Shown: in pieces, positions 4,394-42,454 of the stretch | Layout: each line of letters begins with the position of its first letter | Position numbering within the stretch: position 1 is the first letter of the stretch | Assembly (NCBI GenBank): GCA_963794325.1 | Contig: CAWCDG010000005.1 | Coordinates: 224,001 to 288,000 of the forward strand | Direction of reading: 5' to 3' | Source: an uncultured delta proteobacterium | GTDB taxonomy: Bacteria > Desulfobacterota > Binatia > Binatales > Binataceae | Length of the DNA: 64,000 nt | The notes under the pieces: generated by a model | What the model was told of the DNA's origin: nothing | The model's database searches: none | Seen by the model: only the letters and a program-made list of their open reading frames with translations | Position numbers and translations under genes: made by a program

Positions 4394-5968
4394 ATGGCGA
4401 CAATCAACGACAAGATCACGATCAGGCGTGCACTGATAGGCGTCGCCGACAAGGCCGGTGTCGCGGACTTCGCCAAAGCACTGGTGCGCCACGGCGTCGA
4501 AATCGTATCGACGGGCGGTACGATGGCGGCTCTGGAAGCGGCTGGCGTCAAGGTGAGGTCGGTTGAGAATTTCACCGGCTCGCCCGAGATGCTCGATGGC
4601 CGGGTGAAGACGCTGCATCCGAAGATTCACGGCGGCATCCTCGCCCGGCGCGGTGAGGAGAGCCATCAGCGTCAAATGCTTCAACATGAAATCGAGCCGA
4701 TCGACTTGGTGGTCGTGAATTTCTATCCGTTCGAGAAGACGGTCGCGAAGCCCGGCGTGAGTCTCGACGATGCAATCGAAAATATCGACATCGGCGGACC
4801 TACGCTGGTGCGCGCGGCGGCGAAGAATTATGGCGATGTCACAGTCGTCGTTGATGCGGCCGACTACGCCACGATCGTCGCGGAACTCGACGCGAACAAG
4901 GGCGCGATGACGGCGAACACGCGATGGCGGCTGGCGCGCAAGGCATTCGCGCGGGTGACGGCGTACGACGCGGCAATCTCAAATTATCTCGGCACGCATT
5001 CGGGAGACGGCGACAAGACTAGTCTCGGCGAGACGTTCAGCCTCGCGCTCGAGCGCGAACAGGCGCTGCGCTACGGCGAGAATCCGCATCAGTCGGGCGC
5101 ACTCTACGGGCGCTTCCTGGAAATCACGCATCAGCTTCACGGCAAGGAGCTGTCGTTCAACAACGTCGTCGATATCAGCTCGGCGATGAACCTGATGCTC
5201 GAATTCGAGGACGAGCGGCGCGCAGTCGTCGCGATCCTCAAGCACAACACGCCGTGCGGCGTCGGCATCGCGGACACGCTCAAAGGCGCGTGGGACAAGG
5301 CGTTCGCAACCGACCCGGATTCGCCGTTCGGCGGCATCATCATTGCGAACCGCCCGTGGGACATGGAGTTCGCGCGCGCTGTCGATGAGCTGTTCACCGA
5401 AGTGCTGATCGGTCCCGCGTATCCTGAGGATGTGATCGCGTTCCTGCGCAAGAAAAAGAATCGGCGCGTGATGACGTTCGATTTGAAGGCGGTGGATCGC
5501 GGCGAGCTCGACGTCAAGAAGGTGCTCGGCGGATTGCTGGTGCAGACGCCGGACCTGGCGATCGAGGATCCGCGCAAGGGCAAAATCGTGACGCGGCGCG
5601 CGCCCACTGACGCCGAGATGCGCGCGCTCACCTTCGGAGTCAAGGTCTGCAAGCACATCAAGTCTAATGCGATCGCGTTCGTTGCCGAGGATCGCACGCT
5701 GGCGGTTGGCGGCGGCGCGACCTCGCGAATCGATCCGGTGTACGCAGCGCGCGAGAAGGCCGCGCGACTCAAGGTCCGGCTCGAAGGTTCGGTGCTGGTG
5801 TCGGAAGCGCTGTTTCCGTTTCCGGACGGCCCAACCCTCGCGGCCGAGGCGGGCGCGACGGCGATCGCACAGCCCGGTGGCGCCGTACGCGACGACAAAG
5901 TGATCGAAGCCGCCGACAAGTTCGGCCTCGCCATGGTCTTCACCGGCGTGCGTCACTTCAGGCATTAG
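4394..5968 (+). CDS. purH: bifunctional AICAR transformylase / IMP cyclohydrolase
   Basis: GRVKTLHPKIHGGIL, IDIGGPT, LRYGENPHQ, C-terminal RHFRH. Confidence 0.97.
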   Translation: MATINDKITIRRALIGVADKAGVADFAKALVRHGVEIVSTGGTMAALEAAGVKVRSVENFTGSPEMLDGRVKTLHPKIHGGILARRGEESHQRQMLQHEIEPIDLVVVNFYPFEKTVAKPGVSLDDAIENIDIGGPTLVRAAAKNYGDVTVVVDAADYATIVAELDANKGAMTANTRWRLARKAFARVTAYDAAISNYLGTHSGDGDKTSLGETFSLALEREQALRYGENPHQSGALYGRFLEITHQLHGKELSFNNVVDISSAMNLMLEFEDERRAVVAILKHNTPCGVGIADTLKGAWDKAFATDPDSPFGGIIIANRPWDMEFARAVDELFTEVLIGPAYPEDVIAFLRKKKNRRVMTFDLKAVDRGELDVKKVLGGLLVQTPDLAIEDPRKGKIVTRRAPTDAEMRALTFGVKVCKHIKSNAIAFVAEDRTLAVGGGATSRIDPVYAAREKAARLKVRLEGSVLVSEALFPFPDGPTLAAEAGATAIAQPGGAVRDDKVIEAADKFGLAMVFTGVRHFRH

Positions 5969-5975
5969 CAGCACG

Positions 5976-7289
5976 ATGAAGGTGCTGGTCATAGGAAAAG
6001 GTGGGCGCGAACACGCGCTGGTTTGGCGGCTCCATCAGAGCGAGACGGTCTGGAAGATTTTCTGCGCGAGCGGAAATCCAGGCATCGATCAGATTGCGGA
6101 ACCGGTACCGATCGCGCCGACCGATGTCGCGGCGCTCGTGGAATTTGCAAAATCAAAATCCGTCGACCTGACCATAGTTGGTCCGGAAGATCCGCTCGCC
6201 GCCGGGATCGTCGATCAGTTCACGCGTGCTGGTCTGAAAATATTTGGGCCGACAGCGGCCGCATCGCAGCTCGAAACGAGCAAGTCGTTCGCGAAAGCAA
6301 TCATGCGCGAGGGCGGCGTGCCAACTGCCGACTTCGCCGCTTTCGACGATGCTGAATCCGCGCGGCGCTACGTGAAGGCGCGCACCGGCTCGATGGTGGT
6401 CAAGGCGGACGGACTCGCGCTCGGAAAAGGCGTCACGGTTTGCCACGACACGACCACGGCTCTGGAAGCCATCACAGATGCGATGGAGCGGCGGCGGTTC
6501 GGAGCCGCGGGCAGTCGAGTGATCGTCGAGGAGTTTCTGACCGGCGAGGAAATTTCATTCTTTGCGCTGTGCGACGGCGAGAACGCGATCCCGCTCGGCA
6601 CCTTCCAGGATCACAAGGCGATTTTCGACGGCGATCGCGGCCCCAACACCGGCGGGATGGGCGCATATTCGCCAGTCCCGCAATTCGGGCCCGAGATGGA
6701 AGCGCGCACGATGCGCGAAGTGATCTTGCCAACACTTGGCGCGATGAACGCGCGCGGGACTCCGTTTCGCGGAATGCTGTATGCAGGTTTGATGACCGAC
6801 GGCGAACGAATCAATGTGATCGAATTCAACGTCCGCTTCGGCGATCCGGAATGCGAACCTCAGATGATGCGGTTGGACAGCGACCTGGCGGAGATCCTGC
6901 TCGCTGCTGTTGAAGGCAAAGTGGCGAATGCCGCGGTCCGGCTGTCGCCGCGCAGTGCGGTCGCGGTCGTGCTCGCGTCGGGCGGATATCCGGGCGAATA
7001 CAAAAAGGGCATCGCGATTCACGGGCTGGACCGGCTCGAAGGCAACGTCCCGTCGGACATCAAGATAAAATGGGCGATGAAAAAGATTCGCGTGAAGGTT
7101 TTCCATTCGGGCACTGCGATGCGCGACGGACAGTTGGTGACTGATGGCGGGCGCGTGTTGACGGTGACCGCGATGGCGCCGGAGCTGGCGACGGCAGTCG
7201 ATGCGGCATACGAAGCGGCGGAAATGATCGAGTTCGAGGGACGTCACTTCCGCCGCGACATTGCGCGCCGCGCGCTCGGCCACTCGTGA
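5976..7289 (+). CDS. purD: phosphoribosylamine--glycine ligase
   Basis: GGREHAL, KADGLALGKGV, GPNTGGMGAY, EFNVRFGDPE. Confidence 0.97.
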   Translation: MKVLVIGKGGREHALVWRLHQSETVWKIFCASGNPGIDQIAEPVPIAPTDVAALVEFAKSKSVDLTIVGPEDPLAAGIVDQFTRAGLKIFGPTAAASQLETSKSFAKAIMREGGVPTADFAAFDDAESARRYVKARTGSMVVKADGLALGKGVTVCHDTTTALEAITDAMERRRFGAAGSRVIVEEFLTGEEISFFALCDGENAIPLGTFQDHKAIFDGDRGPNTGGMGAYSPVPQFGPEMEARTMREVILPTLGAMNARGTPFRGMLYAGLMTDGERINVIEFNVRFGDPECEPQMMRLDSDLAEILLAAVEGKVANAAVRLSPRSAVAVVLASGGYPGEYKKGIAIHGLDRLEGNVPSDIKIKWAMKKIRVKVFHSGTAMRDGQLVTDGGRVLTVTAMAPELATAVDAAYEAAEMIEFEGRHFRRDIARRALGHS

Positions 7290-7894
7290 TGTTTCGGCTC
7301 GAAGACGGAATTGCCGCCTTGCAAGCCGGCGAGCTGGTCGTCTATCCAACTGAAACGTTCTATGCGATCGGTGCTGACGCGTTTTCATCGACCGCACTGC
7401 GGCGACTGTTTATGGTGAAGGGACGCGAACCCGGGCGGCCCGTTGGATTGATCGCAGCTGACGCCGCGATGGCATTTTCAGTGGCGCGTGAAATACCGAT
7501 CGATGCGCGGCGGCTCGCCGACGCGTTCTGGCCGGGACCGCTGACTCTCGTGTTGCCGGCTCGCGACGACATCGCGCCGGAGCTGGCTGGAGCAGACGGC
7601 GTCGGCGTGCGGGTATCTCCAAATCCCGTCGCGCGCTCACTCAGCGCGGGAATCGGGAAACCGATCACCGCGACCAGCGCAAACCTGAGCGGAGCACCTC
7701 CGGCGAGCACGCTCGCGGAAGCGCGCGCGGCGTTCGGCGCAAAAGTTAAAGTATACCTTGAAGGTGGGAAATTGATGGCGTCGGCGCCGAGCACGGTCGT
7801 TGCCGTCAGCGGGAGCGGATGGAAAATGGTGAGAGTTGGAGCGATTTCGCTAAGTCAGATCGCAATCGCGCTGGCGGGGGACGCGTTGAAATGA
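7286..7894 (+). CDS. tsaC: L-threonylcarbamoyladenylate synthase (Sua5/YrdC)
   Basis: YPTETFYAIG, FWPGPLTLV, TSANLSG. Confidence 0.9.
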   Translation: MMFRLEDGIAALQAGELVVYPTETFYAIGADAFSSTALRRLFMVKGREPGRPVGLIAADAAMAFSVAREIPIDARRLADAFWPGPLTLVLPARDDIAPELAGADGVGVRVSPNPVARSLSAGIGKPITATSANLSGAPPASTLAEARAAFGAKVKVYLEGGKLMASAPSTVVAVSGSGWKMVRVGAISLSQIAIALAGDALK

Positions 7895-9187
7895 GCGGGC
7901 TCGGCAAACGGATCGAGCCCTTGCGCGCGCTGATGTACAACCGTCAAATCGCCGGCGAGCCGGCACTCGTCGTGGCGCCGCCTTACGATCTGATCGGTGC
8001 CGCGCGTCAGAATCAACTATACGAGCGCAGTCCGTACAACGTCGTGCGGCTCGAACTCGCGCGCGAGACGGACCGTTATGGCGCGGCGGAGAAAACGCTC
8101 GCGGATTGGATGGCGACGAGCGTCCTTGAACGGCCGGCGCGGCCTGCCATTTTTCAATACACGCAGACTTTCGACGTCGAGGGGCGGCTGCTGCATCGCA
8201 CCGGATTCATCGCGCGCGTTCGGCTCGAGGAGTTCGATCGCGGACGCATCCTCCCGCACGAGAAAACTTTTCCAGCCGCCAAAGAAGACCGCCTTCGCCT
8301 GCTGACCGCGCTGCAGGTCAACACGAGCTCGATCTTCGGTCTGTACTCAGGCATCCATCCTGAGATCGATCGATTGCGCGATCAGGTCGCTGCGCGCGAG
8401 CCGCTGATCGATCTGGTCGATGACCTTGGAATCCGCAATGAGCTGCGGCCGATCGAGGCGGACGACGAAATCGCGATCATTCAGCGCGAACTCGAATCGC
8501 CGCGCATCCTGATCGCCGACGGACACCATCGCTACGAGACTGCGCTGAACTATCGCCGCGCGCGGCGCCACGAGAATGCTTCCAACGAACCGGCGCCATA
8601 CGACTATACGATGATGACGTTGGTCGCGTGCGACGATCCCGGGCTGGTGATTCTGCCGACGCATCGGGTTGTAAAGTCGCTGCCCGTCTGCCGCGATTAC
8701 GTCGTTTGCGCAACGTGCGCGCGAAGTGTTCGAGGTCGACGAGATCACTCATCGCGATGAGTTTCGCACGCGCCTGAATGATTCGGGCCCCGGCGCGATC
8801 GGCGTATCGCTCAAGGGGAGTCCGCATTACTTTCTTCTGCGACTCCGCGATGCAGCAGCGATGAAGTCCGCGAGGCCTGAGGCGCCGGACGAGGTTCGGC
8901 GCCTCGACGTGTCCGTTCTGCACGCGCTGGTGTTCGACCGAATCTTCGGGCTGCGCGACGACGAAATTCGCAAGGGCGGAAACATCGAATACACGATCGA
9001 GATTGGCGGCGCGCTCGGCGCCGTGGCGCAGGGGCATGCCGACGGCGCGTTCCTGATGAATCCGCCGTCGATTCAGGATGTCGAGCGGGTGAGCGATGCG
9101 GGCGCTACGATGCCCGAGAAGTCGACCTACTTCCATCCCAAGTTGCTGACGGGCCTCGTGATGAATCCGCTGTTCGACGACCAATGA
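7891..9187 (+). CDS. DUF1015 family protein, split by a +1 frameshift near 8683-8685
   Basis: PPYD, PHEKT, IADGHHRYETA and PTHR are in ORF 7819..8760; MPEKSTYFHPK is in ORF 8726..9187. Removing one C from CCC joins them (KSLPSAAITSFAQRAREVFE). Confidence 0.85.
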
Positions 9188-9804
9188 TTCGCACTGGGCG
9201 GTTGATCCTCGTGCGCCACGGCGAGACTGAGGGCGAGTCGAGCATCAGGTATCACGGCCGCACCGACGTGGCATTGTCGGAACCCGGACGCGCGCAGATG
9301 CGCCTTGCGCGCCGCGCGATCGAGACGCGTCACGGGGTCAAAACTTACGCCCAGGTTTTTTCGAGTCCGCTGATTCGCGCGTCCGAAGGCGCGCGCATCG
9401 TATCAGGCGATTCGTCCCCGCTGGTCACAATCGATGAGTTCGCCGAAGTGCACTTCGGATTGTTCGAGGGACTCACGGCAGATGAGATTCGCGAGCGCTA
9501 CCCCGACGAGTTCGCGCGATGGAACGCTGATCGACTCGCGCCGACCTACACCTATCCCGAGGGCGAGAGCCGCGCCGACTTTACCAATCGCGTCGAGCGT
9601 GGCCTGGAACGCATGCTGACCATGTGGACGCCGCGCGATCGCGAAGCGCTGTTGGTGGCGCATCGCGGGGTGATTCGGGCAATTGTGCGAAAGCTCACCA
9701 ATCATGAGCCCGTGGTGGAGCTTGGATCGATTCACATTCTGCGCTTCGACGGCGGCTGGCAAGCTTACCTGCTCGATCTGATCGATCATCTCGACAACAC
9801 CTGA
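9184..9804 (+). CDS. histidine phosphatase family protein
   Basis: LVRHGET, SSPLIRA, E..FG..EG, PEGES, VAHRGVI. Confidence 0.9.
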   Translation: MIRTGRLILVRHGETEGESSIRYHGRTDVALSEPGRAQMRLARRAIETRHGVKTYAQVFSSPLIRASEGARIVSGDSSPLVTIDEFAEVHFGLFEGLTADEIRERYPDEFARWNADRLAPTYTYPEGESRADFTNRVERGLERMLTMWTPRDREALLVAHRGVIRAIVRKLTNHEPVVELGSIHILRFDGGWQAYLLDLIDHLDNT

Positions 9805-35273: not shown

Positions 35274-36116
35274 CTAGTGCGGGGAGCTGTCAGTACCGGC
35301 CGGCGCCGCATTCGCGATCGGCTCGCCGACCGCGCCTACTTTGACCGCGATTTGGAGCGAGGGACCATGAGTGTGCTCATCCGTGCCGTTTGGCCTGATC
35401 ACCGTTAGGTACATCGTATCTCCCGGCTTGAGCTGCGACATGGCGGACTCCAGATCGCTCTGGTCGCGGACGCGATTGCCGTCAACCGCGATAATCAGAT
35501 CTCCGCCCTGGCCCATCGCGCCGGAACTCGACAGCGCGTTGTTGGCCACGCTCGTACCAAAAGGAAGGCCAATCATTCCGGTCAGTGTCTGGACCGCCGC
35601 GCCGACCGCCGTCATGCCCGACCGCGCATGCAAACCCGCCTGCGCCGCTGGACTGTTGGGATCGATGGTCAGCACCTCGAGTCCGTGTAGCTCGCCGCCT
35701 TTGTAGCACTTCGAAACGTAGGCCGCGGTGATACCGAGGTAGGGGCGCGCATGCGGCCGGTTGCTATCGACGTTATTGTTCTGATTGCTGTTGAGGTTGC
35801 TCTCGTCATTACCGGTGCCGTTCTCGGTGCCCGGTCGAAAGTTGGGATCGATCGAAGAGGTATCCTCGCCCGGATTGAAATTCCGGTCGCTGGGAATTTC
35901 CTTGACGGCGGGCTTTGGCGCGACCAAGCCGGGTTGCGGGGCAATCTCAAGCGTCGCGTCGTCACTGCCGCCCTGCCCCGCTATTCCGTGCGTGACTGAA
36001 TCACCGCCGCCTTGCGAACCATTTTGCGAATCCTGGTTCTGCGCGATTGCAACGTGAGAGAACGCGAACAGCGCCGCTGTCGCTACTCCCAGGCTGAGAA
36101 TCTTTTGCAGCTTCAT
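35274..36116 (-). CDS. secreted PDZ-domain protein
   Basis: Signal peptide MKLQKILSLGVATAALFAFSHVAIA; low-complexity linker; PDZ motifs PYLGI, SPAAQAGL, GDLIIAVDG. Confidence 0.75.
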   Translation of the reverse strand: MKLQKILSLGVATAALFAFSHVAIAQNQDSQNGSQGGGDSVTHGIAGQGGSDDATLEIAPQPGLVAPKPAVKEIPSDRNFNPGEDTSSIDPNFRPGTENGTGNDESNLNSNQNNNVDSNRPHARPYLGITAAYVSKCYKGGELHGLEVLTIDPNSPAAQAGLHARSGMTAVGAAVQTLTGMIGLPFGTSVANNALSSSGAMGQGGDLIIAVDGNRVRDQSDLESAMSQLKPGDTMYLTVIRPNGTDEHTHGPSLQIAVKVGAVGEPIANAAPAGTDSSPH

Positions 36117-36240
36117 CTTTGTCACTATCGGTCGATCCGGCGATCCAGTGGCTGTCCAAATATAAGCCCGCTGTGAGATCTCCTCAAGCTGGACGATTTC
36201 TCCTTGAAGGCCGCGCAAACCCATGCGAGAGTTTTGCTCG

Positions 36241-37248
36241 ATGAAAATAATTTCCACAGTTGCGCTCCAACCTGCGCATCGCGCCGCGATTGCGCACGCC
36301 GTGCCCGGAGCCGAGGTGCTCGACCGGGAGGTTCGGTCGCGAGAGGACTTCAGCGAGCTGCTGAGCGGAGGATGCGATGTCCTGCTGACGTTCCGGCTGC
36401 CGCACGACGCCGTGGAACGAGCGCCGAACATCCGCTGGATTCAATTGCTCAGCGCGGGCGCCGACCATGCGCTGGGCGGCCCGCTCAAGGGCAGCTCGAT
36501 ACCGCTCACGACTGCCAGTGGGATTCATGCGACGCCGATCGCGGAATACACGCTAGGGTCGATGCTGGCATATGCGCATCGGATTCATCTGGCGATTCGC
36601 GCGCAGATTCGCCATGAGTGGTCGCGTTCCCGCGTCTTAACCGAAAATATCGACGAGCTCCGCGGGCACACGATTGGAATCATTGGCTACGGGTCAATCG
36701 GCAGGGAAACTGCGCGGCTCGCGCAAACATTCGGGATGACGGTGCTGGCGCTCAAGCGCGACCCGGCCAACCGCGCAGATACTGGATGGTGTCCCGCGGG
36801 GCTGGGCGATCCCGACGGCAAAATTCCCGCTCGCTTCTACGGTCCCGATGAACGCGAAGCGATCTTGCGCGACAGCGACTACGTGTCGGTCACGCTCCCG
36901 CTCAGCGCGCACACGCGCAAATTTATCGGCGCACGGGAAATCGCCGCGATGAAACCGGGCGCATACCTGGTCAACATCGGGCGCGGCCAGGTGATCGACG
37001 AGGCCGCGATGATCGCGGCGCTGAAGGCGGGCAAGATTGGCGGCGCGGGGCTGGACGTATTCGAGCACGAGCCGCTCGAACCGGACAGTCCGCTGTGGGA
37101 CATGGAGAACGTGATTCTGACGCCACACGTGTCGGGCGACAATCGCGGGTATATGGACAAGGCCTGCGAGCTATTCGTAGAGAACCTGAAACGCTTCGCC
37201 GCCAATCGTCCGCTGCTGAACCTGGTCGATCCGAACCTCGGCTATTAG
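36241..37248 (+). CDS. D-2-hydroxyacid dehydrogenase family protein
   Basis: GIIGYGSIG, LVNIGRG, LDVFEHEPL, TPHVSG. Confidence 0.93.
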   Translation: MKIISTVALQPAHRAAIAHAVPGAEVLDREVRSREDFSELLSGGCDVLLTFRLPHDAVERAPNIRWIQLLSAGADHALGGPLKGSSIPLTTASGIHATPIAEYTLGSMLAYAHRIHLAIRAQIRHEWSRSRVLTENIDELRGHTIGIIGYGSIGRETARLAQTFGMTVLALKRDPANRADTGWCPAGLGDPDGKIPARFYGPDEREAILRDSDYVSVTLPLSAHTRKFIGAREIAAMKPGAYLVNIGRGQVIDEAAMIAALKAGKIGGAGLDVFEHEPLEPDSPLWDMENVILTPHVSGDNRGYMDKACELFVENLKRFAANRPLLNLVDPNLGY

Positions 37249-37255
37249 CTTCACG

Positions 37256-37284
37256 TTGACACTGGCTATCGGCTGTTCTAGATT
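37256..37284 (+). promoter_or_regulatory. sigma70-type promoter of the exosortase operon
   Basis: TTGACA-17 nt-TAGATT, 41 nt upstream of ATG 37326. Confidence 0.6.
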
Positions 37285-37325
37285 CACGCCGCGTTCCGCT
37301 AATCAGTATCGATACAAACAAAATA

Positions 37326-39074
37326 ATGGCGAAAGGTGCGCATTCGCTGGCACAGGGTACTACCCTGGAACCGTCGATCGCGCCGGATACGATTCCGATC
37401 GCGTCGGGCTCGCGTGATCTCAATCGCCAGGTCTCCGCACCCCCATACGTCGCGTTCCTGATCGTCGTTCTGTCCGGCGAAGTTATAGCTTACTACCGTT
37501 TTTCAAATTCAGCGGCGATTCTCATGCAAGGCGGTCCCGACGTCCGCTACTTGCTGATCATGCTCACGGAATGGATCCGCTACATGATCCTGGCTGCGGC
37601 AGCGACGACGATTCTGCTGAGCCGGAACGAGTTTGCCGCGACAGCGATGCGGATGTGGGTCACCCCGGTTCCGATTTCCAGACGCAAGAAAATTCTCGCG
37701 ATTCAAGTGATACTGGCGGGCGCGCTGGTGGCGTGGAGCGGCATCCGTCCCAGGTATTTTGCGTCGCCGGAAGCTGTCGCGGGCTGGGCGCTGGTCCGGC
37801 TGGCGCTGGCCATGGGCGCGATGGCGACGTTCGCGATCGCATTTACTCCACTCGAGGTCTGGCGCGAATGGTACCTCGCGCGGCCGGGCGCATTCCGAGC
37901 AGGCCTCGTCGTTGGACTCGTCGCCGGGCCCGTCCTGCGAAACTTCCTTCCAATGTTCTCTTCGGCAATGTGTGAGATTCCTATTCTGACGGCGGCGATG
38001 TACGACTTTACCATTTGGATCGCGGCCGCGACGCTGAGGGCGCTTGGACAGCATGCGGTGATCAACTGGCAGCGCCAGTCCATCGGGGTCCCGGGTTTCA
38101 GGGTTATTGTCTCGCCGCAATGCGCGGGAATCGATGGCATCGTTGTTATCACGCTTTTTCTTACGGCATATCTCTGGTTTTGCCGCCGCGATTTGCGATT
38201 CCCGGTTGCTCTGATCCTTCTTCCGCTGGGCATGATTCTGAGTTGGATTTTGAACGACGTCCGGCTCACGGCGTTGATAATGATTGGCCCGCACAATCCG
38301 AAGATCGCGATAGGATTTTTTCACACGATCGCAGGATGGGCCTTCCTCAATCTGCTGGGAATCGCGATGGTTGTATCGAGCCGGACTATGTCCATCTTCC
38401 GCGCGGAACCACTCGACGCGCTCCCGCAGGCGAGCGAGCGAACCTCGTCAGCGGACATGTATATCCTTCCGATGCTGGTGACACTCGCGGTCGGGATGCT
38501 GACCCGGCCGTTCGCGGCGTCACTCGACTTTCTATATCCGTTGACCGTGATTGCAACCGCCGCGGTCTTGTTCGCGTATCGCGGCAAGATCTTGGCACTC
38601 GGATGGAATCCAGACTGGACCGCGCCAGCGGCGGGCGCCGTGGTTTTTGCGATCTGGATTGCGATCGCGCGACAGTCCGGGACGTTGCACGATTCGGCGA
38701 TGGCGGCTTCGTTGCAAAGCCTTCCTGATTGGGACCGCTGCTGCTGGCTAGTATTCCGGGTGGCGGGCGCGGTGATCAGCGTGCCTATCGCGGAAGAGTT
38801 GTTTTTTCGCGGTTACCTGTTGAGAAAGCTGGTCTCGGCGGACTTCGAATCCGTCGATGCGCGGCAGTTCACCTGGATGTCTTTTCTAATCTCGTCGATG
38901 TTATTCGGCGTGCTGCATCGTAATTGGATCGGCGGCATCCTTGCGGGGATGGGCTTCGCAATCGTGCAATATCGGCGCGGACGGCTGACCGACGCAATCG
39001 TCGCGCATTCCGCCTGCAATGCGCTGGTGGCGGCGTACGTGATAGCGACGGGCAGTTGGGGACTATGGAATTAG
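37326..39074 (+). CDS. xrtE: exosortase fused to CPBP (CAAX/Abi) intramembrane protease, exosortase E/protease-like
   Basis: Polytopic membrane protein. Exosortase triad: Cys in VSPQCAGIDG, Arg in LNDVRLTALI, His in FFHTIAGW. C-terminal CPBP motifs PIAEELFFRG, FGVLH, AHSACN. Confidence 0.88.
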   Translation: MAKGAHSLAQGTTLEPSIAPDTIPIASGSRDLNRQVSAPPYVAFLIVVLSGEVIAYYRFSNSAAILMQGGPDVRYLLIMLTEWIRYMILAAAATTILLSRNEFAATAMRMWVTPVPISRRKKILAIQVILAGALVAWSGIRPRYFASPEAVAGWALVRLALAMGAMATFAIAFTPLEVWREWYLARPGAFRAGLVVGLVAGPVLRNFLPMFSSAMCEIPILTAAMYDFTIWIAAATLRALGQHAVINWQRQSIGVPGFRVIVSPQCAGIDGIVVITLFLTAYLWFCRRDLRFPVALILLPLGMILSWILNDVRLTALIMIGPHNPKIAIGFFHTIAGWAFLNLLGIAMVVSSRTMSIFRAEPLDALPQASERTSSADMYILPMLVTLAVGMLTRPFAASLDFLYPLTVIATAAVLFAYRGKILALGWNPDWTAPAAGAVVFAIWIAIARQSGTLHDSAMAASLQSLPDWDRCCWLVFRVAGAVISVPIAEELFFRGYLLRKLVSADFESVDARQFTWMSFLISSMLFGVLHRNWIGGILAGMGFAIVQYRRGRLTDAIVAHSACNALVAAYVIATGSWGLWN

Positions 39075-40118
39075 CGCCTCGACCTTTCCGGCTTACGACC
39101 GGGGCGAGCGCAGCGGTGTTCTCGATTTTGGCGGCCGGCCTGATTGCCGGTTCCATCCTCTATACACACATCGCCGCGACCCACCCGGGTGCACTGGTGG
39201 GAATGCCGGCGCTTGCGGGGATGAACAACCTGAGGCTGTCGCGCTTTCTGCTGGGCGCGGGGATCTGGGCTGCGGCCGTACTGATGTGGAGCTTCGCGCT
39301 CCAGCGGCTATTTCCGATGGACGCGTCCGATCGCATGATGACGCGAGGCCTCTGGTTCGATTCGATCTGGTTCGGCGGGGAGCTGGCGCGCCAACTGACC
39401 TGGATACCCCTGTATTTCGTTTTTCTCATCTGGATCAAGCGCAACCTGCTCGGCAACTTCGAATTGATTGCGCCAGGAACGATGCCACGCGCGATGCTGC
39501 TGATCGTAGGCAATATTGGCCGGTGATTTTCTCGCCTACCTAAGTCACATCGCACGGCATCGATTCGATTTTCTGTGGAATTTTCATGCCGTCCACCACT
39601 CGCAAAGGGAACTCAACTTATTCACGCAGCATCGCTTTCACGACCTTGATACTTTCGCCGACATGGCGATCAGGACTTTGCCGGTTTTGATTCTGACGCC
39701 GGGTCTCGTCGTGGTTGGCGTTTACAATACTGTGGCGCTGATTCATTTTCGCCTCTACCATTGCCCGATCCGATCGAACTACGGACCGTTGCGATACATC
39801 CTGGTGACGCCGCAGTCTCATCGCATTCATCACGCGAGCGATCCGCGCCTGCAGAATAGTAATTTCGGAATATTCTTTAGCGTGTGGGATCATATTTTCG
39901 GGACGCAGCATCGCTCCTACGATGAGTACGAAGTACAGCTCGGCCTTCAGGATGTTGCCTTTCCCGTCGAACAGGACGCTTCCGTAGGCGAATTTGTCGC
40001 AGCGTATGCGGCGCAACTGGTCTATCCGCTCGCGAGACTTCTACACGCGACTACACCCGCAACGGCGCCAGAGTTAGTGGGCAACAAAGGATTTGAAATA
40101 ACGAAGTCATCCGAGTAG
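39065..40118 (+). CDS. sterol desaturase / fatty-acid hydroxylase superfamily protein, frameshifted at 39509-39510
   Basis: His boxes HIARH, HAVHH, HRIHH and NFG...S.WDHIFGT. ATG 39065 overlaps the end of xrtE; deleting one G gives LLIVAILAGDFLAY. Confidence 0.85.
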
Positions 40119-40149
40119 ATAAGGCTGTCACTGGGGAGGATCAGATTGG

Positions 40150-40338
40150 ATGAGAGATGCGTTGCGAGTCGCCGGGGTTGTGGCGTTGATCGTATTCGTT
40201 CTCGTACCGGGAGCCGCGTTTGCGGGGGCCCCAGTGGCGGCGCCTGAGCTCGATCCAGGTCTAGGTATAGCGGGGTTGGCGTTGCTGGGTGGCACCGCCG
40301 CTTTTGTAGTCGAGCGCTATCGCCGGCGTTCGAAGTAA
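40150..40338 (+). CDS. APELDP-CTERM micro-substrate 1 (core GAPVA)
   Basis: 25-aa signal ending AFA, GAPVA, APELDP, TM helix, ERYRRRSK; GGAGG RBS. Confidence 0.88.
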   Translation: MRDALRVAGVVALIVFVLVPGAAFAGAPVAAPELDPGLGIAGLALLGGTAAFVVERYRRRSK

Positions 40339-40382
40339 GAGACTGGTAACCGGGGGAGATTGGGTTCGTCAGAGAGGATCAG

Positions 40383-40568
40383 ATGGAGAATGCGTTGCGA
40401 GTGGCTGGGGTTGTGGGATTGATAGTCTTCGTTGTCGCGCCCAGAGCCGCGTTAGCAGGTGCGGTCGGCGCACCTGAGCTCGACCCGAGCCTCGGCATCG
40501 CGGGGTTAGCGTTGCTGGGTGGCACCGCCGCTTTTGTAATCGAGCGTTATCGGCGCCGCGCGAAATAA
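40383..40568 (+). CDS. APELDP-CTERM micro-substrate 2 (core GAVG)
   Basis: Signal ending ALA, GAVG, APELDP, TM helix, ERYRRRAK; GAGG RBS. Confidence 0.88.
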   Translation: MENALRVAGVVGLIVFVVAPRAALAGAVGAPELDPSLGIAGLALLGGTAAFVIERYRRRAK

Positions 40569-40587
40569 CCGGGAGGAGTCGGACTCA

Positions 40588-40773
40588 ATGAAAGATATGA
40601 TCCGCTTCGCGGGGGTCCTTGCGTTGATTGCATTCGTTCTCGCACCGGGAGCCGCGTTCGCTGGTATCACGCCGGCGCCTGAGCTCGATCCAAGCCTGGG
40701 TATCGCTGGGTTGGCGTTGATGGGTGGAACTGCAGCCTTTGTAATCGAGCGTTATCGGCGGCGTTCGAAATAA
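40588..40773 (+). CDS. APELDP-CTERM micro-substrate 3 (core GITP)
   Basis: Signal ending AFA, GITP, APELDP, TM helix, ERYRRRSK; GGAGGAG RBS. Confidence 0.88.
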   Translation: MKDMIRFAGVLALIAFVLAPGAAFAGITPAPELDPSLGIAGLALMGGTAAFVIERYRRRSK

Positions 40774-40792
40774 CCGGGAGGAGTCGGATTCA

Positions 40793-40975
40793 ATGAAAGA
40801 TACGATCCGAGTCGCGGGGGTCCTTGCATTGATCGCGTTCGTTCTCGCACCGGGAGCCGCGTTGGCGAGTGTGGGCGCGCCTGAGCTTGATCCAGGCATG
40901 AGCGTCGCTGGGTTGGCGTTGCTGGGCGGTTCAGCCGCTTTTGTAATCGAGCGTTATCGGCGCCGCCCGAAGTAA
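40793..40975 (+). CDS. APELDP-CTERM micro-substrate 4 (core SVG)
   Basis: Signal ending ALA, SVG, APELDP, TM helix, ERYRRRPK; GGAGGAG RBS. Confidence 0.88.
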   Translation: MKDTIRVAGVLALIAFVLAPGAALASVGAPELDPGMSVAGLALLGGSAAFVIERYRRRPK

Positions 40976-41002: not shown

Positions 41003-42454
41003 CTATCGGGCCTGCAGTTTCGCCAAGAACCGTTCCTTTAATCCATCGAACGGGCCGTTCGACATGAACAGCGCGATGTCGCCTGAGCGCGCGTCGGCGA
41101 GCATCCGCTCGAGGATTTCATCGTTCGACGCGCACGCAATCGCATGCGCTCCGCGCGCGCTGATCGCACTGGCGAGCGCGCCAGTTTCGAGCCGCTCGTT
41201 CGGGGCGATCTGATCGTTCTCCTTGAAATAGACCGGCCCCAGGTAAACCCGCGAGGCTCGATCGAATGCGCACGCGAATGCGTTTTGGAAAACGTTACGC
41301 CGCGCCGTGTTCGAGCGTGGCTCGAACGCCGCAAGTATACGACGGCCGGGAAATCGCTCGGCGATCGCTTCGAGCGTGACGCCGATCGCCGTCGGATGAT
41401 GCGCGAAGTCGTCCACCACGGTCACTCCTGCCGCCTCGCCGATCACCTGCTGCCGCCGCACCACGCCTTTGAAGGTCCGCAGGCCGGCGGCGATCTCGTC
41501 GCCGGAAACTCCAAACGCGCTGAGCAGCACGTAAACGCCGAGCGCATTGGCGACGTTCATGCGGCCGCCGATCGGCAGATGGATCGATTCGTGGATTCGA
41601 TCGCCGTCGCGCGTCACCGAAAATCTCGCGCCGTCTGAGCCTACCGTCACGTCCGTCGCGCGATATTCACCTTCGCGCAGTCCGTAGGTGAGCCGTCGCG
41701 AGCGAGCGCTCGCGCTGACTTCGAGTGCGTGCGGAAAATCGGCGCATACCGCGAGCACGCGCCACGAATCCATCTGATCGACGAGCGCACGGAAGCTCGA
41801 CTTCACGTGCTCGAGATCGCGATAGATATCCGCATGATCGAATTCCACCGCGGTGATTATCGCGCCGCTGGCGCGGTAGTGCAGAAACTTCGGGCCTTTG
41901 TCGAAAAATGCGGTGTCGTACTCGTCGCCCTCGATCACGAAGTCGGCGCCATTGCCTAACCGGTAGTTCGAGCCGAAATCGCTTGCGACACCTCCAACCA
42001 GCATCGATGGGTCGCGGCCCGCGGCTTCGAGCACGTGCGCCATCATCGCGGTTGAAGTGGTCTTGCCATGCGTTCCCGTGATCATCAGCACGCGCCGGTC
42101 CTTCAGAAAAAAATGCCAGAGCGCCTCGGGCATCGAGAGATATGGAATCGGCGAAGCGAGGAGCGCGACGGCTTCGGGATTGGCCGGCACGATCACGTTG
42201 CCCACCACGGCCAGGTCGGGAGCAGGCGATAAATTCGCGGGCGAAAATCCGGTCATCAATTCGACTCGCGAATTTTTGAGCAGCGACAGGGTTGGCTCGT
42301 AGAGCTGATTGTCGGAGCCGGTGACAGAAAATCCGCGCTCGACCAGCATCCCGGCCAGCGCAGCCATCGCGGTGCCGCCGACTCCTACAAGGTGCACGCG
42401 GCGGACGGACGCTGGAATGCGCGCGAGGCGCGATGCGCTTGCAACATCAGCCAC
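41003..42454 (-). CDS. mpl: murein peptide ligase (UDP-MurNAc:L-Ala-gamma-D-Glu-mDAP ligase)
   Basis: GVGGTAMAALA, TGTHGKTT, EGDEYDTAFFDK, DDFAHHPTAI, FEPRSNT. Confidence 0.93.
   Translation of the reverse strand: MADVASASRLARIPASVRRVHLVGVGGTAMAALAGMLVERGFSVTGSDNQLYEPTLSLLKNSRVELMTGFSPANLSPAPDLAVVGNVIVPANPEAVALLASPIPYLSMPEALWHFFLKDRRVLMITGTHGKTTSTAMMAHVLEAAGRDPSMLVGGVASDFGSNYRLGNGADFVIEGDEYDTAFFDKGPKFLHYRASGAIITAVEFDHADIYRDLEHVKSSFRALVDQMDSWRVLAVCADFPHALEVSASARSRRLTYGLREGEYRATDVTVGSDGARFSVTRDGDRIHESIHLPIGGRMNVANALGVYVLLSAFGVSGDEIAAGLRTFKGVVRRQQVIGEAAGVTVVDDFAHHPTAIGVTLEAIAERFPGRRILAAFEPRSNTARRNVFQNAFACAFDRASRVYLGPVYFKENDQIAPNERLETGALASAISARGAHAIACASNDEILERMLADARSGDIALFMSNGPFDGLKERFLAKLQAR

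What the first reader, a model, noticed from the sequence alone, without database searches (positions are those of the whole stretch)
37256..40975. Exosortase-CPBP protease + lipid desaturase + four micro-substrates: candidate ribosomal micro-lipopeptide system
Seen: one co-oriented cassette with its own promoter, encoding an exosortase (Cys/Arg/His intact) fused to a CPBP protease (EExxxR, FxxxH, HxxxN intact), an overlapping di-iron desaturase/hydroxylase gene, and four small genes ending in APELDP-TM-RYRRR. Established: exosortases and archaeosortases process C-terminal motif-TM-basic signals, and archaeosortase ArtA processing is linked to lipid attachment. The fusion matches, as I recall, the TIGRFAM exosortase E/protease of the VPEID-CTERM system, whose function is uncharacterised. 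Inference: these substrates have no passenger domain, so the cassette may make very short peptides transferred to a lipid that the desaturase tailors. That would be a RiPP-like lipopeptide or signal pathway with a sortase-type enzyme as the maturase.
Basis: partly seen in the sequence, partly recalled or inferred. Interest (0 to 1): 0.92.

Follow-up and report, generated by a model that had tools for sequence, protein, structure and literature searches.

The report
Exosortase E cassette with tiny substrates
A soil bacterium carries a compact, portable gene set in which a membrane sorting enzyme is paired with four 60-residue proteins that are almost nothing but their own export and sorting signals; this is a typical member of a named but never tested system.

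Summary
Window 37326-39074 encodes an exosortase E/CPBP-protease fusion (TIGR04162, 204 bits, cut-off 150), with Cys266/Arg313/His333 and the CPBP motifs invariant. It is followed by four tandem 60-62 aa genes: signal peptide, 3-5 variable residues, then APELDP-TM-RYRRR.

These are the only such signals in the 85%-complete genome. Tiny substrates are the family-wide rule, not a local oddity. I found 111 such ORFs beside XrtE in 83 of 96 non-redundant loci from several phyla (median 56 aa from signal-peptide core to C-terminus). In 10 of 10 genomes searched, only small frames matched.

A complex model places the PELD motif at the Cys/Arg/His triad (score 0.72, best control 0.00).

The fatty-acid hydroxylase gene is a sporadic accessory, present in 8 of 96 loci and directly adjacent in 7. 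In this assembly a 1-nt insertion splits it. The insertion is absent from the one read-derived contig covering the site and from both relatives aligned.

Verdict: a new member of the known but uncharacterised XrtE/VPEID-CTERM system. Transfer of the short peptide to a lipid is an analogy with archaeosortase A, not shown. The desaturase-tailoring idea is weakly supported.

The parts
37256..37284 (+). sigma-70-like promoter, TTGACA-17 nt-TAGATT, in the 77-nt gap upstream of xrtE
   Evidence: 10 of 12 matches. Conserved in same-genus G103 despite different upstream genes. The count in the region is not above the shuffles (1 vs 1.7).
37326..39074 (+). xrtE: exosortase E domain (about residues 155-350, Cys266/Arg313/His333) fused to a CPBP/Rce1-like glutamic intramembrane protease domain (about 398-581; EE490-491..R495, F527..H531, H561..N565)
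   Evidence: It is the only exosortase-family match in the genome.
39065..39526 (+). fatty-acid hydroxylase gene, N-terminal membrane part (153 codons, then TGA). Its ATG overlaps the xrtE stop by 10 nt.
   Evidence: 72% identical to residues 1-149 of the intact G103 protein.
39511..39513 (+). site of one extra base (GGCAATATT here, GGCATACTG in G103) that shifts the hydroxylase frame by +1
   Evidence: alignment with G103 and L001; the only Logan contig covering the site, run X1 record 7, depth 11.6, has one letter left out at 39511; dropping one base gives a 350-aa open frame, 283/350 identical to G103 with no gaps.
39516..40118 (+). fatty-acid hydroxylase gene, C-terminal catalytic part, with His boxes HIARH, HAVHH and HRIHH
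   Evidence: PF04116 88.1 bits (cut-off 31). His boxes. OlsE model only 88 bits against a cut-off of 475.
40150..40338 (+). small substrate 1 (62 aa): signal peptide ...AFA|GAPVA, then APELDP-TM-ERYRRRSK
   Evidence: (E 3e-11).
40383..40568 (+). small substrate 2 (61 aa): ...ALA|GAVG, then APELDP-TM-ERYRRRAK
40588..40773 (+). small substrate 3 (61 aa): ...AFA|GITP, then APELDP-TM-ERYRRRSK
40793..40975 (+). small substrate 4 (60 aa): ...ALA|SVG, then APELDP-TM-ERYRRRPK
40465..40975 (+). 205-bp tandem repeat (2.5 copies, 83% matches), showing that substrates 2-4 arose by tandem duplication

Best explanation
This is a self-contained, portable XrtE (exosortase E/CPBP protease) sorting cassette. 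Its only substrates are the four tandem ~60-aa pre-peptides.

Proposed course, with status of each step:
(a) Each precursor is exported by Sec. Its N-terminal signal peptide is removed at AxA by signal peptidase I. This is inferred from sequence.
(b) The C-terminal helix and the RYRRR cluster hold the remaining ~37-residue peptide in the inner membrane, N-out, with APELDP at the periplasmic face. This is inferred.
(c) The substrate helix docks in a groove between the exosortase and CPBP halves of XrtE, putting the PELD motif at Cys266/Arg313/His333. This is supported by a complex model, not shown.
(d) Cys266 cuts in or next to PELD and passes the N-terminal 7-10-residue peptide to an acceptor. 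By analogy with ArtA the acceptor may be a membrane lipid, but it is unknown. My odds that it is a lipid are about 0.25-0.3.
(e) The fused CPBP domain packs against the middle of the substrate helix (invariant G42/A44/L45/G48) and cuts or clears the leftover helix. This is inferred.

The 3-5 residues between signal peptide and motif are nearly unconstrained. Whatever the product does therefore depends little on their sequence.

The fatty-acid hydroxylase is a lineage-specific accessory that travels with the cassette in this genus. Its broken frame in this assembly is most likely an assembly indel or a strain variant, not a fixed loss.

The confidence given (0.75) is for the identity of the system and the enzyme-substrate pairing with cleavage at the motif. 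It is not for the nature of the acceptor.
For: Identity:
- TIGR04162 scores 204 bits against a cut-off of 150.
- The catalytic residues of both domains are invariant in 16 homologues.

Exclusive pairing with tiny substrates:
- The four ORFs are the only hits in the genome to a 108-sequence C-terminal profile (E 2e-11 to 2e-10; next best 1.2) and to a regex scan.
- XrtE is the only exosortase-family gene found.
- 83 of 96 non-redundant XrtE loci carry 1-4 adjacent ORFs of this kind.
- Across 111 such ORFs the median is 56 aa from signal-peptide core to C-terminus (90th percentile 79, maximum 111). The median is 8 residues from the hydrophobic core to the P of PExD.
- In 10 of 10 genomes searched whole, the profile hits only 1-4 small frames, 59-183 aa stop to stop.

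Real genes:
- pN/pS is 0.22-0.41 in signal and sorting parts and 0.84 in the core.
- GGAGG-like sites precede each gene.

Docking:
- Complex score 0.72 (median of 3 runs), best of 3 controls 0.00.
- That mark was reached by 58 of 80 solved complexes and 2 of 110 mismatched pairs. These counts hold only roughly because my own alignments were used.
- The runs agree in at least 82% of contacts, and the partner pLDDT is at least 66.
- The confident interface includes XrtE 265-271, 310, 313-314 and 333-335 (the triad), and CPBP 493, 497, 501, 505-506 and 529-530, with substrate residues 30-58.
- No PDB relative of XrtE by sequence profile at E<=0.01, so a pass from memory of a like complex is unlikely.

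Portability:
- The same gene order (xrtE, hydroxylase, substrates) and the same promoter occur in same-genus G103, between different flanking genes.

Hydroxylase:
- It is directly adjacent to XrtE or the substrates (gap <=443 nt) in 7 loci and 1.1 kb away in an eighth, and appears nowhere else in the ~15-kb loci.

Frameshift:
-.

Background:
- ArtA-dependent removal of the C-terminal helix with lipid attachment, and the Cys/Arg/His triad, are described in passages of Haft's preprint 10.1101/2023.06.07.544157.
- EpsH-CAAX protease fusions were noted in PMC1569441 (passage).
Against: - The four substrates do not reach the curated VPEID-CTERM cut-off: three score 13.9-17.6 bits and one has no hit, against a cut-off of 33. 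Only 1 of 10 small ORFs tested from other loci reaches it.
- No processing, cleavage site, acceptor or product has been observed for any XrtE system that I could find. 'VPEID' appears in 0 papers of the held library.
- Signal-peptide cleavage was not run through a predictor.
- 13 of 96 loci show no small ORF, though several are short or cut at the contig end.
- 88 of 96 loci lack the hydroxylase. The family is common in the class: 117 of 201 genomes at E<=1e-15, a count that includes the unpublished genome G183. Its nearest non-genus homologues (34-40% identity) are in genomes without a detected XrtE or on other contigs.
- The contig that lacks the extra base differs from the window at 4 other positions in 851, so it may be another strain. 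X2-X4 do not cover the site.
- The genome is 85% complete.
- The complex score is a model's confidence, not a measurement.
Confidence: 0.75

Rival explanations
1. The short N-terminal peptide is not the point. The small proteins are membrane micro-proteins: single-pass after signal-peptide removal, or two-helix hairpins if the first helix is not cleaved. XrtE/CPBP cleavage then regulates something or releases the conserved helix-plus-RYRRR fragment. The sorting machinery would be acting as a dedicated intramembrane processing switch.
For: - The strongest constraint lies on the PELD-to-end segment (pN/pS 0.22), while the core is near neutral (0.84).
- G42, A44, L45, G48, E55 and R58 are invariant in the substrate helix and tail.
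- The glycine equivalent to G48 is invariant in 21 sequences from several phyla.
- The complex model packs this helix against the CPBP helix that carries EExxxR.
Against: - Sorting-signal helices of all exosortase substrates are conserved because the enzyme recognises them, so constraint there is expected under the main reading too.
- AxA sites directly after the first helix argue for signal-peptide removal (sequence).
- No partner that could sense such a fragment is conserved nearby.
Confidence: 0.15
2. A peptide signal or bacteriocin-like system. The small genes encode secreted short peptides, and the CPBP (formerly Abi) domain serves in maturation or self-immunity, as proposed for CPBP genes next to bacteriocin genes.
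For: - Several tandem, diverging small precursor genes sit next to a CPBP protease.
- The core is variable.
- CPBP members are often found downstream of bacteriocin genes and were suggested to act in self-immunity (passage of 10.1101/2023.06.07.544157).
Against: - The precursors have Sec-type signal peptides and a C-terminal membrane anchor, not double-glycine leaders.
- After both cuts the core is only about 7-10 residues and is not conserved between orthologues.
- No exporter, receptor kinase or immunity gene recurs nearby.
- The exosortase half is invariant in its triad, so it is not a passive fusion.
Confidence: 0.06
3. The small ORFs are not the true substrates, or are not genes. XrtE acts on larger proteins encoded in the missing 15% of the genome.
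For: - The genome is 85% complete.
- The curated VPEID-CTERM model does not reach its cut-off on them.
Against: - In-frame purifying selection.
- Adjacency in 83 of 96 loci.
- In 10 of 10 genomes searched the profile hit only small frames. Four of the five Binatia genomes are 95-100% complete, and no completeness figure was given for the five from other phyla.
- Complex model pass.
Confidence: 0.03

Closest known systems
Exosortase E/protease with VPEID-CTERM sorting domain (NCBIfam/TIGRFAMs TIGR04162 and TIGR04161; defined in silico. The defining paper, Haft et al. 2012, J Bacteriol 194:36, was not readable here.)
   Same: Exosortase-CPBP fusion above the curated cut-off. Adjacent genes carry a (V/A)PE(I/L)D motif, a helix and an Arg cluster. 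There are one to four substrates per genome.
   Different: The signature here is APELDP...ERYRRR and falls below the TIGR04161 cut-off. The lineage is Binatia rather than the proteobacteria I recall as the seed (recalled, not checked). A hydroxylase gene lies between the enzyme and its substrates.
PEP-CTERM/exosortase A (EpsH) systems
   Same: Same enzyme superfamily and Cys/Arg/His triad. Same tripartite C-terminal signal. A CAAX-protease-like partner is known, sometimes fused (PMC1569441, passage).
   Different: As I recall, those systems have many substrates, large and often glycosylated. They sit in exopolysaccharide loci (PMC1569441 title; passage of 10.1101/2023.06.07.544157). Here the substrates are 60 aa, no PEP-CTERM match was found (a search whose control rang nowhere), and no polysaccharide genes recur nearby.
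Archaeosortase A / PGF-CTERM (Haloferax volcanii)
   Same: Homologous enzyme. Removal of the C-terminal helix is linked to attachment of a lipid. This is the only basis for the lipid idea (passage; PMC7157517, title and abstract start only).
   Different: Archaeal. The substrates are large S-layer and other glycoproteins. There is no fused CPBP domain.
Myxosortases (CPBP family) with MYXO-CTERM and related Cys-containing signals
   Same: A CPBP glutamic intramembrane protease processes a tripartite C-terminal signal (10.1101/2023.06.07.544157 passages; PMC11980579 title and abstract start). The window's CPBP half gives weak hits to Mrt models.
   Different: Those signals have an invariant Cys, while none of the four substrates has any Cys. 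Scores on the Mrt models are far below cut-off: 26-40 bits against 75-250.
Fatty acid hydroxylase superfamily (PF04116), for example ornithine lipid hydroxylase OlsE
   Same: Membrane di-iron enzyme with three His boxes. OlsE is the best NCBIfam hit.
   Different: Scores of 88-99 bits against a cut-off of 475 mean it is not OlsE. The substrate is unknown and no solved relative exists by sequence.

Membership tests
Exosortase E/protease, VPEID-CTERM system (TIGR04162) | Score at or above the curated cut-off of the family model | tested here: met
   204.1 bits against a cut-off of 150. 206.6 bits in the genome search.
Exosortase E/protease, VPEID-CTERM system (TIGR04162) | Exosortase catalytic Cys, Arg and His | tested here: met
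   C266, R313 and H333 are invariant in 16 homologues. TIGR04178 signature 46.3 bits against 23.
Exosortase E/protease, VPEID-CTERM system (TIGR04162) | C-terminal CPBP/Rce1-like domain with EExxxR, FxxxH and HxxxN | tested here: met
   PF02517 58.1 bits against 22.4. TIGR03008 147 bits against 81. E490, E491, R495, F527, H531, H561 and N565 are invariant.
Exosortase E/protease, VPEID-CTERM system (TIGR04162) | Cognate sorting-signal proteins encoded in the genome, usually adjacent | tested here: met
   Four adjacent genes. The same arrangement occurs in 83 of 96 loci.
VPEID-CTERM sorting domain (TIGR04161) | Score at or above the curated cut-off (33 bits) | tested here: not met
   Scores of 13.9, 17.6 and 16.4 bits, and no hit for the fourth. 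Only 1 of 10 small ORFs from other XrtE loci reaches it, so the model is narrower than the family.
VPEID-CTERM sorting domain (TIGR04161) | Tripartite architecture at the extreme C-terminus: PE(I/L)D-type motif, hydrophobic helix, basic cluster | tested here: met
   P, E, D and a helix Gly are invariant in 21 sequences. Own profile gives 45 bits, E about 1e-11.
Fatty acid hydroxylase (PF04116) | Family model above the gathering score, and the His boxes | tested here: met
   88.1 bits against 31. HIARH, HAVHH and HRIHH.
Fatty acid hydroxylase (PF04116) | One uninterrupted reading frame | tested here: not met
   The gene is in two frames in the window. It is uninterrupted in G103 and L001 and in the run X1 contig.
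Ornithine lipid hydroxylase OlsE (NF052566) | Score at or above the curated cut-off (475 bits) | tested here: not met
   88-99 bits.
Myxosortase-type CPBP sorting system | Invariant Cys in the signature motif of the sorting signal; Mrt model above cut-off | tested here: not met
   No Cys in the four substrates. Mrt models score 26-40 bits against cut-offs of 75-250.
   The precursor layout (leader, variable core, follower) fits. No product or modification can be shown by sequence.

The most novel reading that the evidence does not exclude
XrtE systems as a whole have turned a protein-anchoring machine into a maker of ultrashort ribosomal peptides. Sec and signal peptidase trim the front. The exosortase Cys cuts at PE(I/L)D and transfers a peptide of roughly 5-10 residues (longer and low-complexity in some lineages) onto a membrane lipid or other envelope acceptor. 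The fused CPBP protease destroys the leftover helix. In several lineages a neighbouring fatty-acid hydroxylase tailors the lipid part. The product would be a ribosomally encoded peptide-capped lipid of the Gram-negative envelope, widespread in soil Binatia, Acidobacteriota, Planctomycetota and Proteobacteria.
Probability: 0.25. Interest if true: 0.8.

Novelty: new member of a known kind. Interest (0 to 1): 0.45.

Why it matters
No exosortase substrate has had its acceptor chemistry solved in bacteria. XrtE offers the smallest conceivable test case. It needs one enzyme gene and one 60-aa substrate gene, with no conserved helper genes. The expected product is small enough for direct mass spectrometry.

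The survey here shows that passenger-less substrates are a property of the whole family, across at least four phyla. It also shows that the curated substrate model misses most of them (1 of 10), so these genes are likely under-annotated.

If the peptide goes onto a lipid, this would be a new class of envelope molecule. If not, the system still isolates the exosortase reaction from any cargo.

For this window specifically, the result is ordinary: a typical family member, with a probable assembly indel in the accessory gene.

Tried and rejected
- Literature: 'VPEID-CTERM' gave 0 papers. 'exosortase E / XrtE / VPEID' gave 40 papers, 20 of them listed. None of the 20 was on this system: 'XrtE' matched xrTestes papers and others, and 'exosortase e' matched 'exosortase epsH'. 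The defining paper (Haft 2012, PMC3256604, id confirmed from a reference list) is not held. I could therefore not check whether it already states that VPEID-CTERM proteins are tiny. Supplements are closed.
- Haft's 2023 preprint has no mention of fusions, TIGR04162 or TIGR03008.
- Expression: no RNA holder was listed for the stretch. This is no evidence either way.
- Runs X2-X4 have no cover at the frameshift site. This is a hole, not a finding.
- PEP-CTERM model TIGR02595 gave no match in the genome. The control rang in no genome either, so the blank is uninformative.
- A programmed frameshift in the hydroxylase is rejected. The shift is absent in G103 and L001.
- A dedicated XrtE-linked hydroxylase clade is not supported. 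XrtE-linked copies from other phyla are 30-37% identical to this one. That is no closer than unlinked copies within the class, at 34-40%. No tree was built.
- Terminator scan: 5 found against 4.7 expected, none placed after the fourth small gene.
- A topology count by eye, to place the two active sites on membrane faces, was considered and dropped as too uncertain.
- Structure prediction and fold search of XrtE alone were not run, because coordinates are not returned.

Full report
WHAT IS THERE

The window is G000:C5:224001-288000 of a 4.45-Mb, 10-contig, 85%-complete genome. Its nearest named relatives in public contigs are Binataceae and 'delta proteobacterium' soil MAGs.

Between a 2-hydroxyacid dehydrogenase gene (36223-37248, +) and a convergent Mur-ligase gene (41003-42454, -) lies one co-oriented block.
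- A TTGACA-17-TAGATT element at 37256-37284.
- A 582-aa gene at 37326-39074.
- A fatty-acid hydroxylase gene whose ATG at 39065 overlaps the preceding stop by 10 nt.
- Four small genes at 40150-40338, 40383-40568, 40588-40773 and 40793-40975.

THE ENZYME

The 582-aa protein scores 204.1 bits on TIGR04162, 'exosortase E/protease, VPEID-CTERM system' (cut-off 150). It scores 147 bits on the PEP-CTERM-associated CAAX-protease model TIGR03008 (cut-off 81) and 46 bits on the exosortase/archaeosortase signature (cut-off 23). Pfam PF02517 gives 58 bits (cut-off 22.4).

In an alignment with 15 homologues of 27-74% identity, the invariant residues include the exosortase triad C266/R313/H333. They also include the CPBP motifs E490-E491-x3-R495, F527-x3-H531 and H561-x3-N565.

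It is the only exosortase-family gene detected in the genome. The database search found 72 homologues at E<=1e-10. Sources that name them all use the XrtE name. Fusions of EpsH-like and CAAX-protease-like domains were already noted in 2006 (PMC1569441, passage read).

THE SMALL GENES

Each of the four has the following layout:
- a GGAGG-like site 4-10 nt upstream;
- a K/R-containing N-terminus;
- a hydrophobic stretch ending in AFA or ALA;
- three to five variable residues (GAPVA, GAVG, GITP, SVG);
- then APELDP, a Gly/Ala/Leu-rich helix, and ERYRRR plus two residues.

Copies 2-4 form a 205-bp tandem repeat. Across the four copies and the two orthologues of same-genus genome G103, pN/pS is 0.41 in the signal part, 0.84 in the 6 columns before PELD, and 0.22 from PELD to the end. 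The pairwise comparisons are not independent. The frames are therefore under selection as proteins, and the 'core' is almost free to vary.

The curated VPEID-CTERM model gives only 13.9-17.6 bits (cut-off 33) for three of them and nothing for the fourth. By that model they are not members.

I built a profile from the C-terminal domains found beside XrtE genes elsewhere (108 sequences, 30 positions). It scores the four at E 2e-11 to 2e-10 against all 82,098 six-frame ORFs of the genome. The next hit has E 1.2. A regular-expression scan found the same four plus two unrelated ORFs.

ARE TINY SUBSTRATES SPECIAL TO THIS LOCUS? NO.

I fetched the best 80 of 262 confirmed XrtE relatives from one-genome-per-species contigs. 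I added 20 loci from the window's own class. With the window that makes 101 loci, of which five are duplicates, leaving 96.

ORFs with the same C-terminal domain lie next to XrtE in 83 of the 96 (87 of the 101 before removing duplicates). Among the 13 without one, several are short or cut at the contig end (L011, L050, L059, L080).

For 111 non-redundant ORFs (one degenerate copy in L118 was dropped for lack of the motif), one search gives these figures:
- From the start of the signal-peptide hydrophobic core to the C-terminus: median 56 residues (10th-90th percentile 50-79, maximum 111).
- From the end of that core to the P of PExD, which includes the signal peptide's own c-region: median 8 residues (quartiles 5 and 18.5).

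Where a longer spacer exists it is low-complexity, rich in Gly, Pro or Trp.

The domain profile was then searched through ten whole genomes. Five were Binatia, including G000. The other five hold a Bryobacteraceae, a Gemmataceae, a Silvibacterium, an Isosphaeraceae and a Methylobacter locus. It hit 1-4 places per genome, all in open frames of 59-183 aa stop to stop, and none in a large protein.

The substrate repertoire of XrtE is thus one to four dedicated micro-proteins. This is a family trait, and the window is a typical member. Only 1 of 10 such ORFs from other loci reaches the curated cut-off, so the public model is narrower than the family.

DOES ENZYME MEET SUBSTRATE?

I folded XrtE (alignment of 16) with residues 24-62 of substrate 1 (alignment of 8).
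- The score was 0.72 (median of three runs: 0.72, 0.76, 0.65). The best of 3 controls scored 0.00.
- That mark was reached by 58 of 80 solved complexes and 2 of 110 mismatched pairs. These counts hold only roughly because my own alignments were used.
- The runs agree in at least 82% of contacts. The partner pLDDT is at least 66.

The confident interface covers substrate residues 30-58. On the enzyme it covers 265-271, 310, 313-314 and 333-335, which is the catalytic triad. It also covers helices 337-353 and 374-394, and CPBP residues 493, 497, 501, 505-506 and 529-530, next to EExxxR and FxxxH.

The model supports binding and does not show it. No PDB chain matches an XrtE profile at E<=0.01, so recall of a solved like complex is unlikely. 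Read as geometry, the substrate helix lies between the two catalytic halves with PELD at the Cys. That suits a two-step action on one substrate.

THE HYDROXYLASE

The C-terminal 200 codons (39516-40118) match PF04116 at 88 bits (cut-off 31) and carry HIARH, HAVHH and HRIHH. The best NCBIfam hit is OlsE, at 88 bits against a cut-off of 475, so this is superfamily membership only.

The N-terminal membrane part lies in another frame (39065-39526). Alignment with G103 and L001 shows one extra base in the window: GGCAATATT here, against GGCATACTG and GGCATTCTG. Both relatives have a single frame, 353 aa in G103.

Logan contigs of four soil-metagenome runs from one study were laid on the stretch. 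The only contig covering the site is run X1 record 7 (851 nt, depth 11.6). It has one letter left out at 39511, plus four substitutions elsewhere. Dropping one base gives a 350-aa open frame, 283/350 identical to G103 with no gaps. The break is therefore an assembly indel or a strain variant, and an intact allele exists in the population.

IS THE HYDROXYLASE PART OF THE SYSTEM?

A homologue lies in 8 of the 96 loci: the window, G103 (L111), L001, L026, L037, L046, L064 and L072. In 7 of them it is the next gene after XrtE or after the substrates, with a gap of 443 nt or less. In L064 it is 1.1 kb away. None lies elsewhere in the ~15-kb loci.

The loci come from Binatia, three or four acidobacterial lineages and a proteobacterium. 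Crude clustering of all ORFs of 90 aa or more found no other family consistently adjacent. The other recurrent clusters are generic (short-chain dehydrogenases, ABC ATPases, kinases, response regulators) and scattered.

Against a tight link:
- 88 of 96 loci lack it.
- The family is common in the class: 117 of 201 genomes at E<=1e-15, a count that includes the unpublished genome G183. Genomes often hold several copies.
- The orthologue occurs only in G000 and G103.
- The next-closest homologues (34-40% identity) sit in genomes with no detected XrtE or on other contigs.

I read it as an accessory recruited more than once. This is weakly consistent with a lipid being involved and is no more than that.

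PORTABILITY

XrtE occurs in 38 of 201 sampled genomes of the class and in only 2 of the 9 other sampled genomes of the same genus.

G103 has the same order (xrtE, overlapping hydroxylase, two small genes) and the same promoter-like element (TTGACA-17-TAGAGT). There it lies between an Fe-S assembly gene and an FAD-linked oxidase gene, not the window's neighbours. The cassette behaves as a unit that has landed in different places.

MECHANISM AND ITS STATUS

Shown by sequence and comparison:
- the identity of the enzyme;
- its intact active-site residues;
- the exclusive, adjacent, tiny substrates;
- selection on their frames.

Supported by a model:
- docking of PELD at the triad and of the helix against the CPBP half.

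Inferred:
- Sec export and signal-peptidase cleavage at AxA;
- N-out orientation;
- thioester formation at Cys266 and transfer of the 7-10-residue N-terminal peptide to an acceptor;
- clearance of the helix by the CPBP domain.

The acceptor is unknown. A lipid is suggested only by archaeosortase A, whose action is linked to removal of the C-terminal helix and attachment of a large lipid. Even there it remains unclear whether this is a one-step transpeptidation (passages of 10.1101/2023.06.07.544157).

RIVALS
- The helix/tail fragment or the cleavage event is itself the function (0.15).
- A bacteriocin- or pheromone-like peptide, with CPBP in maturation or immunity (0.06).
- The true substrates lie elsewhere, or the small ORFs are not genes (0.03).

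COMPARISON AND NOVELTY

This is a member of the XrtE/VPEID-CTERM system, which is defined in curated libraries. As far as the held literature shows, it has never been tested: 0 papers contain 'VPEID', and the defining 2012 paper could not be read.

It differs from PEP-CTERM/XrtA systems in substrate size and number, and in lacking polysaccharide genes nearby. It differs from myxosortase systems in having no Cys in the signal.

New here:
- the Binatia variant of the signature (APELDP...ERYRRR), which lies below the curated cut-off;
- quantification showing that passenger-less substrates are the family rule;
- the recurrent hydroxylase adjacency;
- the docking model.

I cannot say whether the small size of the substrates is already stated in the 2012 paper or in the family text.

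VERDICT
- Observation: confirmed.
- Interpretation: partly supported.
- Class: new member of a known kind.
- Interest: 0.45. The locus is ordinary as a locus, but the family is an unusually clean system for solving what exosortases attach their substrates to.

Noticed in passing
L111 (G103:C1:309000-322000) 5762-9358 versus window 37256-40975: The whole cassette, promoter-like element included, sits between different neighbours in two species of one genus. In G103 the neighbours are an Fe-S assembly protein and an FAD-linked oxidase. In the window they are a 2-hydroxyacid dehydrogenase and a Mur ligase. Only 2 of the 9 other sampled genomes of the genus have XrtE. This points to gain or loss as a unit.
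   Followed up: partly
G079:C2:1179652-1179744 (-) and G079:C2:1295962-1296060 (+): This same-genus, 100%-complete genome has two extra substrate-like small frames (69 aa, stop to stop). They lie on a different contig from its XrtE, so they are unlinked copies.
   Followed up: no
L076 6082-6381, L077 6027-6380, L129 7832-8161, L015 5901-6230, L123 5399-6085, L040 5936-6265: Some XrtE substrates carry short low-complexity spacers instead of none. Examples are Trp-rich (WWPWWWDW, PWWWPF), GRGNDD repeats, Gly/Asn-rich stretches and Pro-rich stretches.
   Followed up: no
L118 9065-9520 (-): A degenerate substrate copy (APAIDAP...VPGDRFRR) lies beside an intact one. It is possibly a decaying paralogue.
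   Followed up: no
ten small ORFs of other loci: The curated VPEID-CTERM model reaches its cut-off in only 1 of 10 XrtE-adjacent small ORFs (L013, Methylobacter, 56 bits). These genes are probably missed or left unnamed in many annotations.
   Followed up: partly
window 38001-40000: G+C is 57.7% here, against about 59-63% in most of the window. This coincides with the 3' half of xrtE and the hydroxylase gene.
   Followed up: no
window 35274-36431 (-) and 36223-37248 (+): The longest ORF of the PDZ-domain gene overlaps the start of the divergent dehydrogenase gene by about 200 nt. A later start, before a signal-peptide-like MKLQKILSLG..., is more likely the true one.
   Followed up: no
window 38900-40300 versus runs X1-X4: Contigs from four soil-metagenome runs of one study carry this stretch, with scattered substitutions. 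Some pieces differ at 6-16 sites, so several close strains of this organism co-occur.
   Followed up: no
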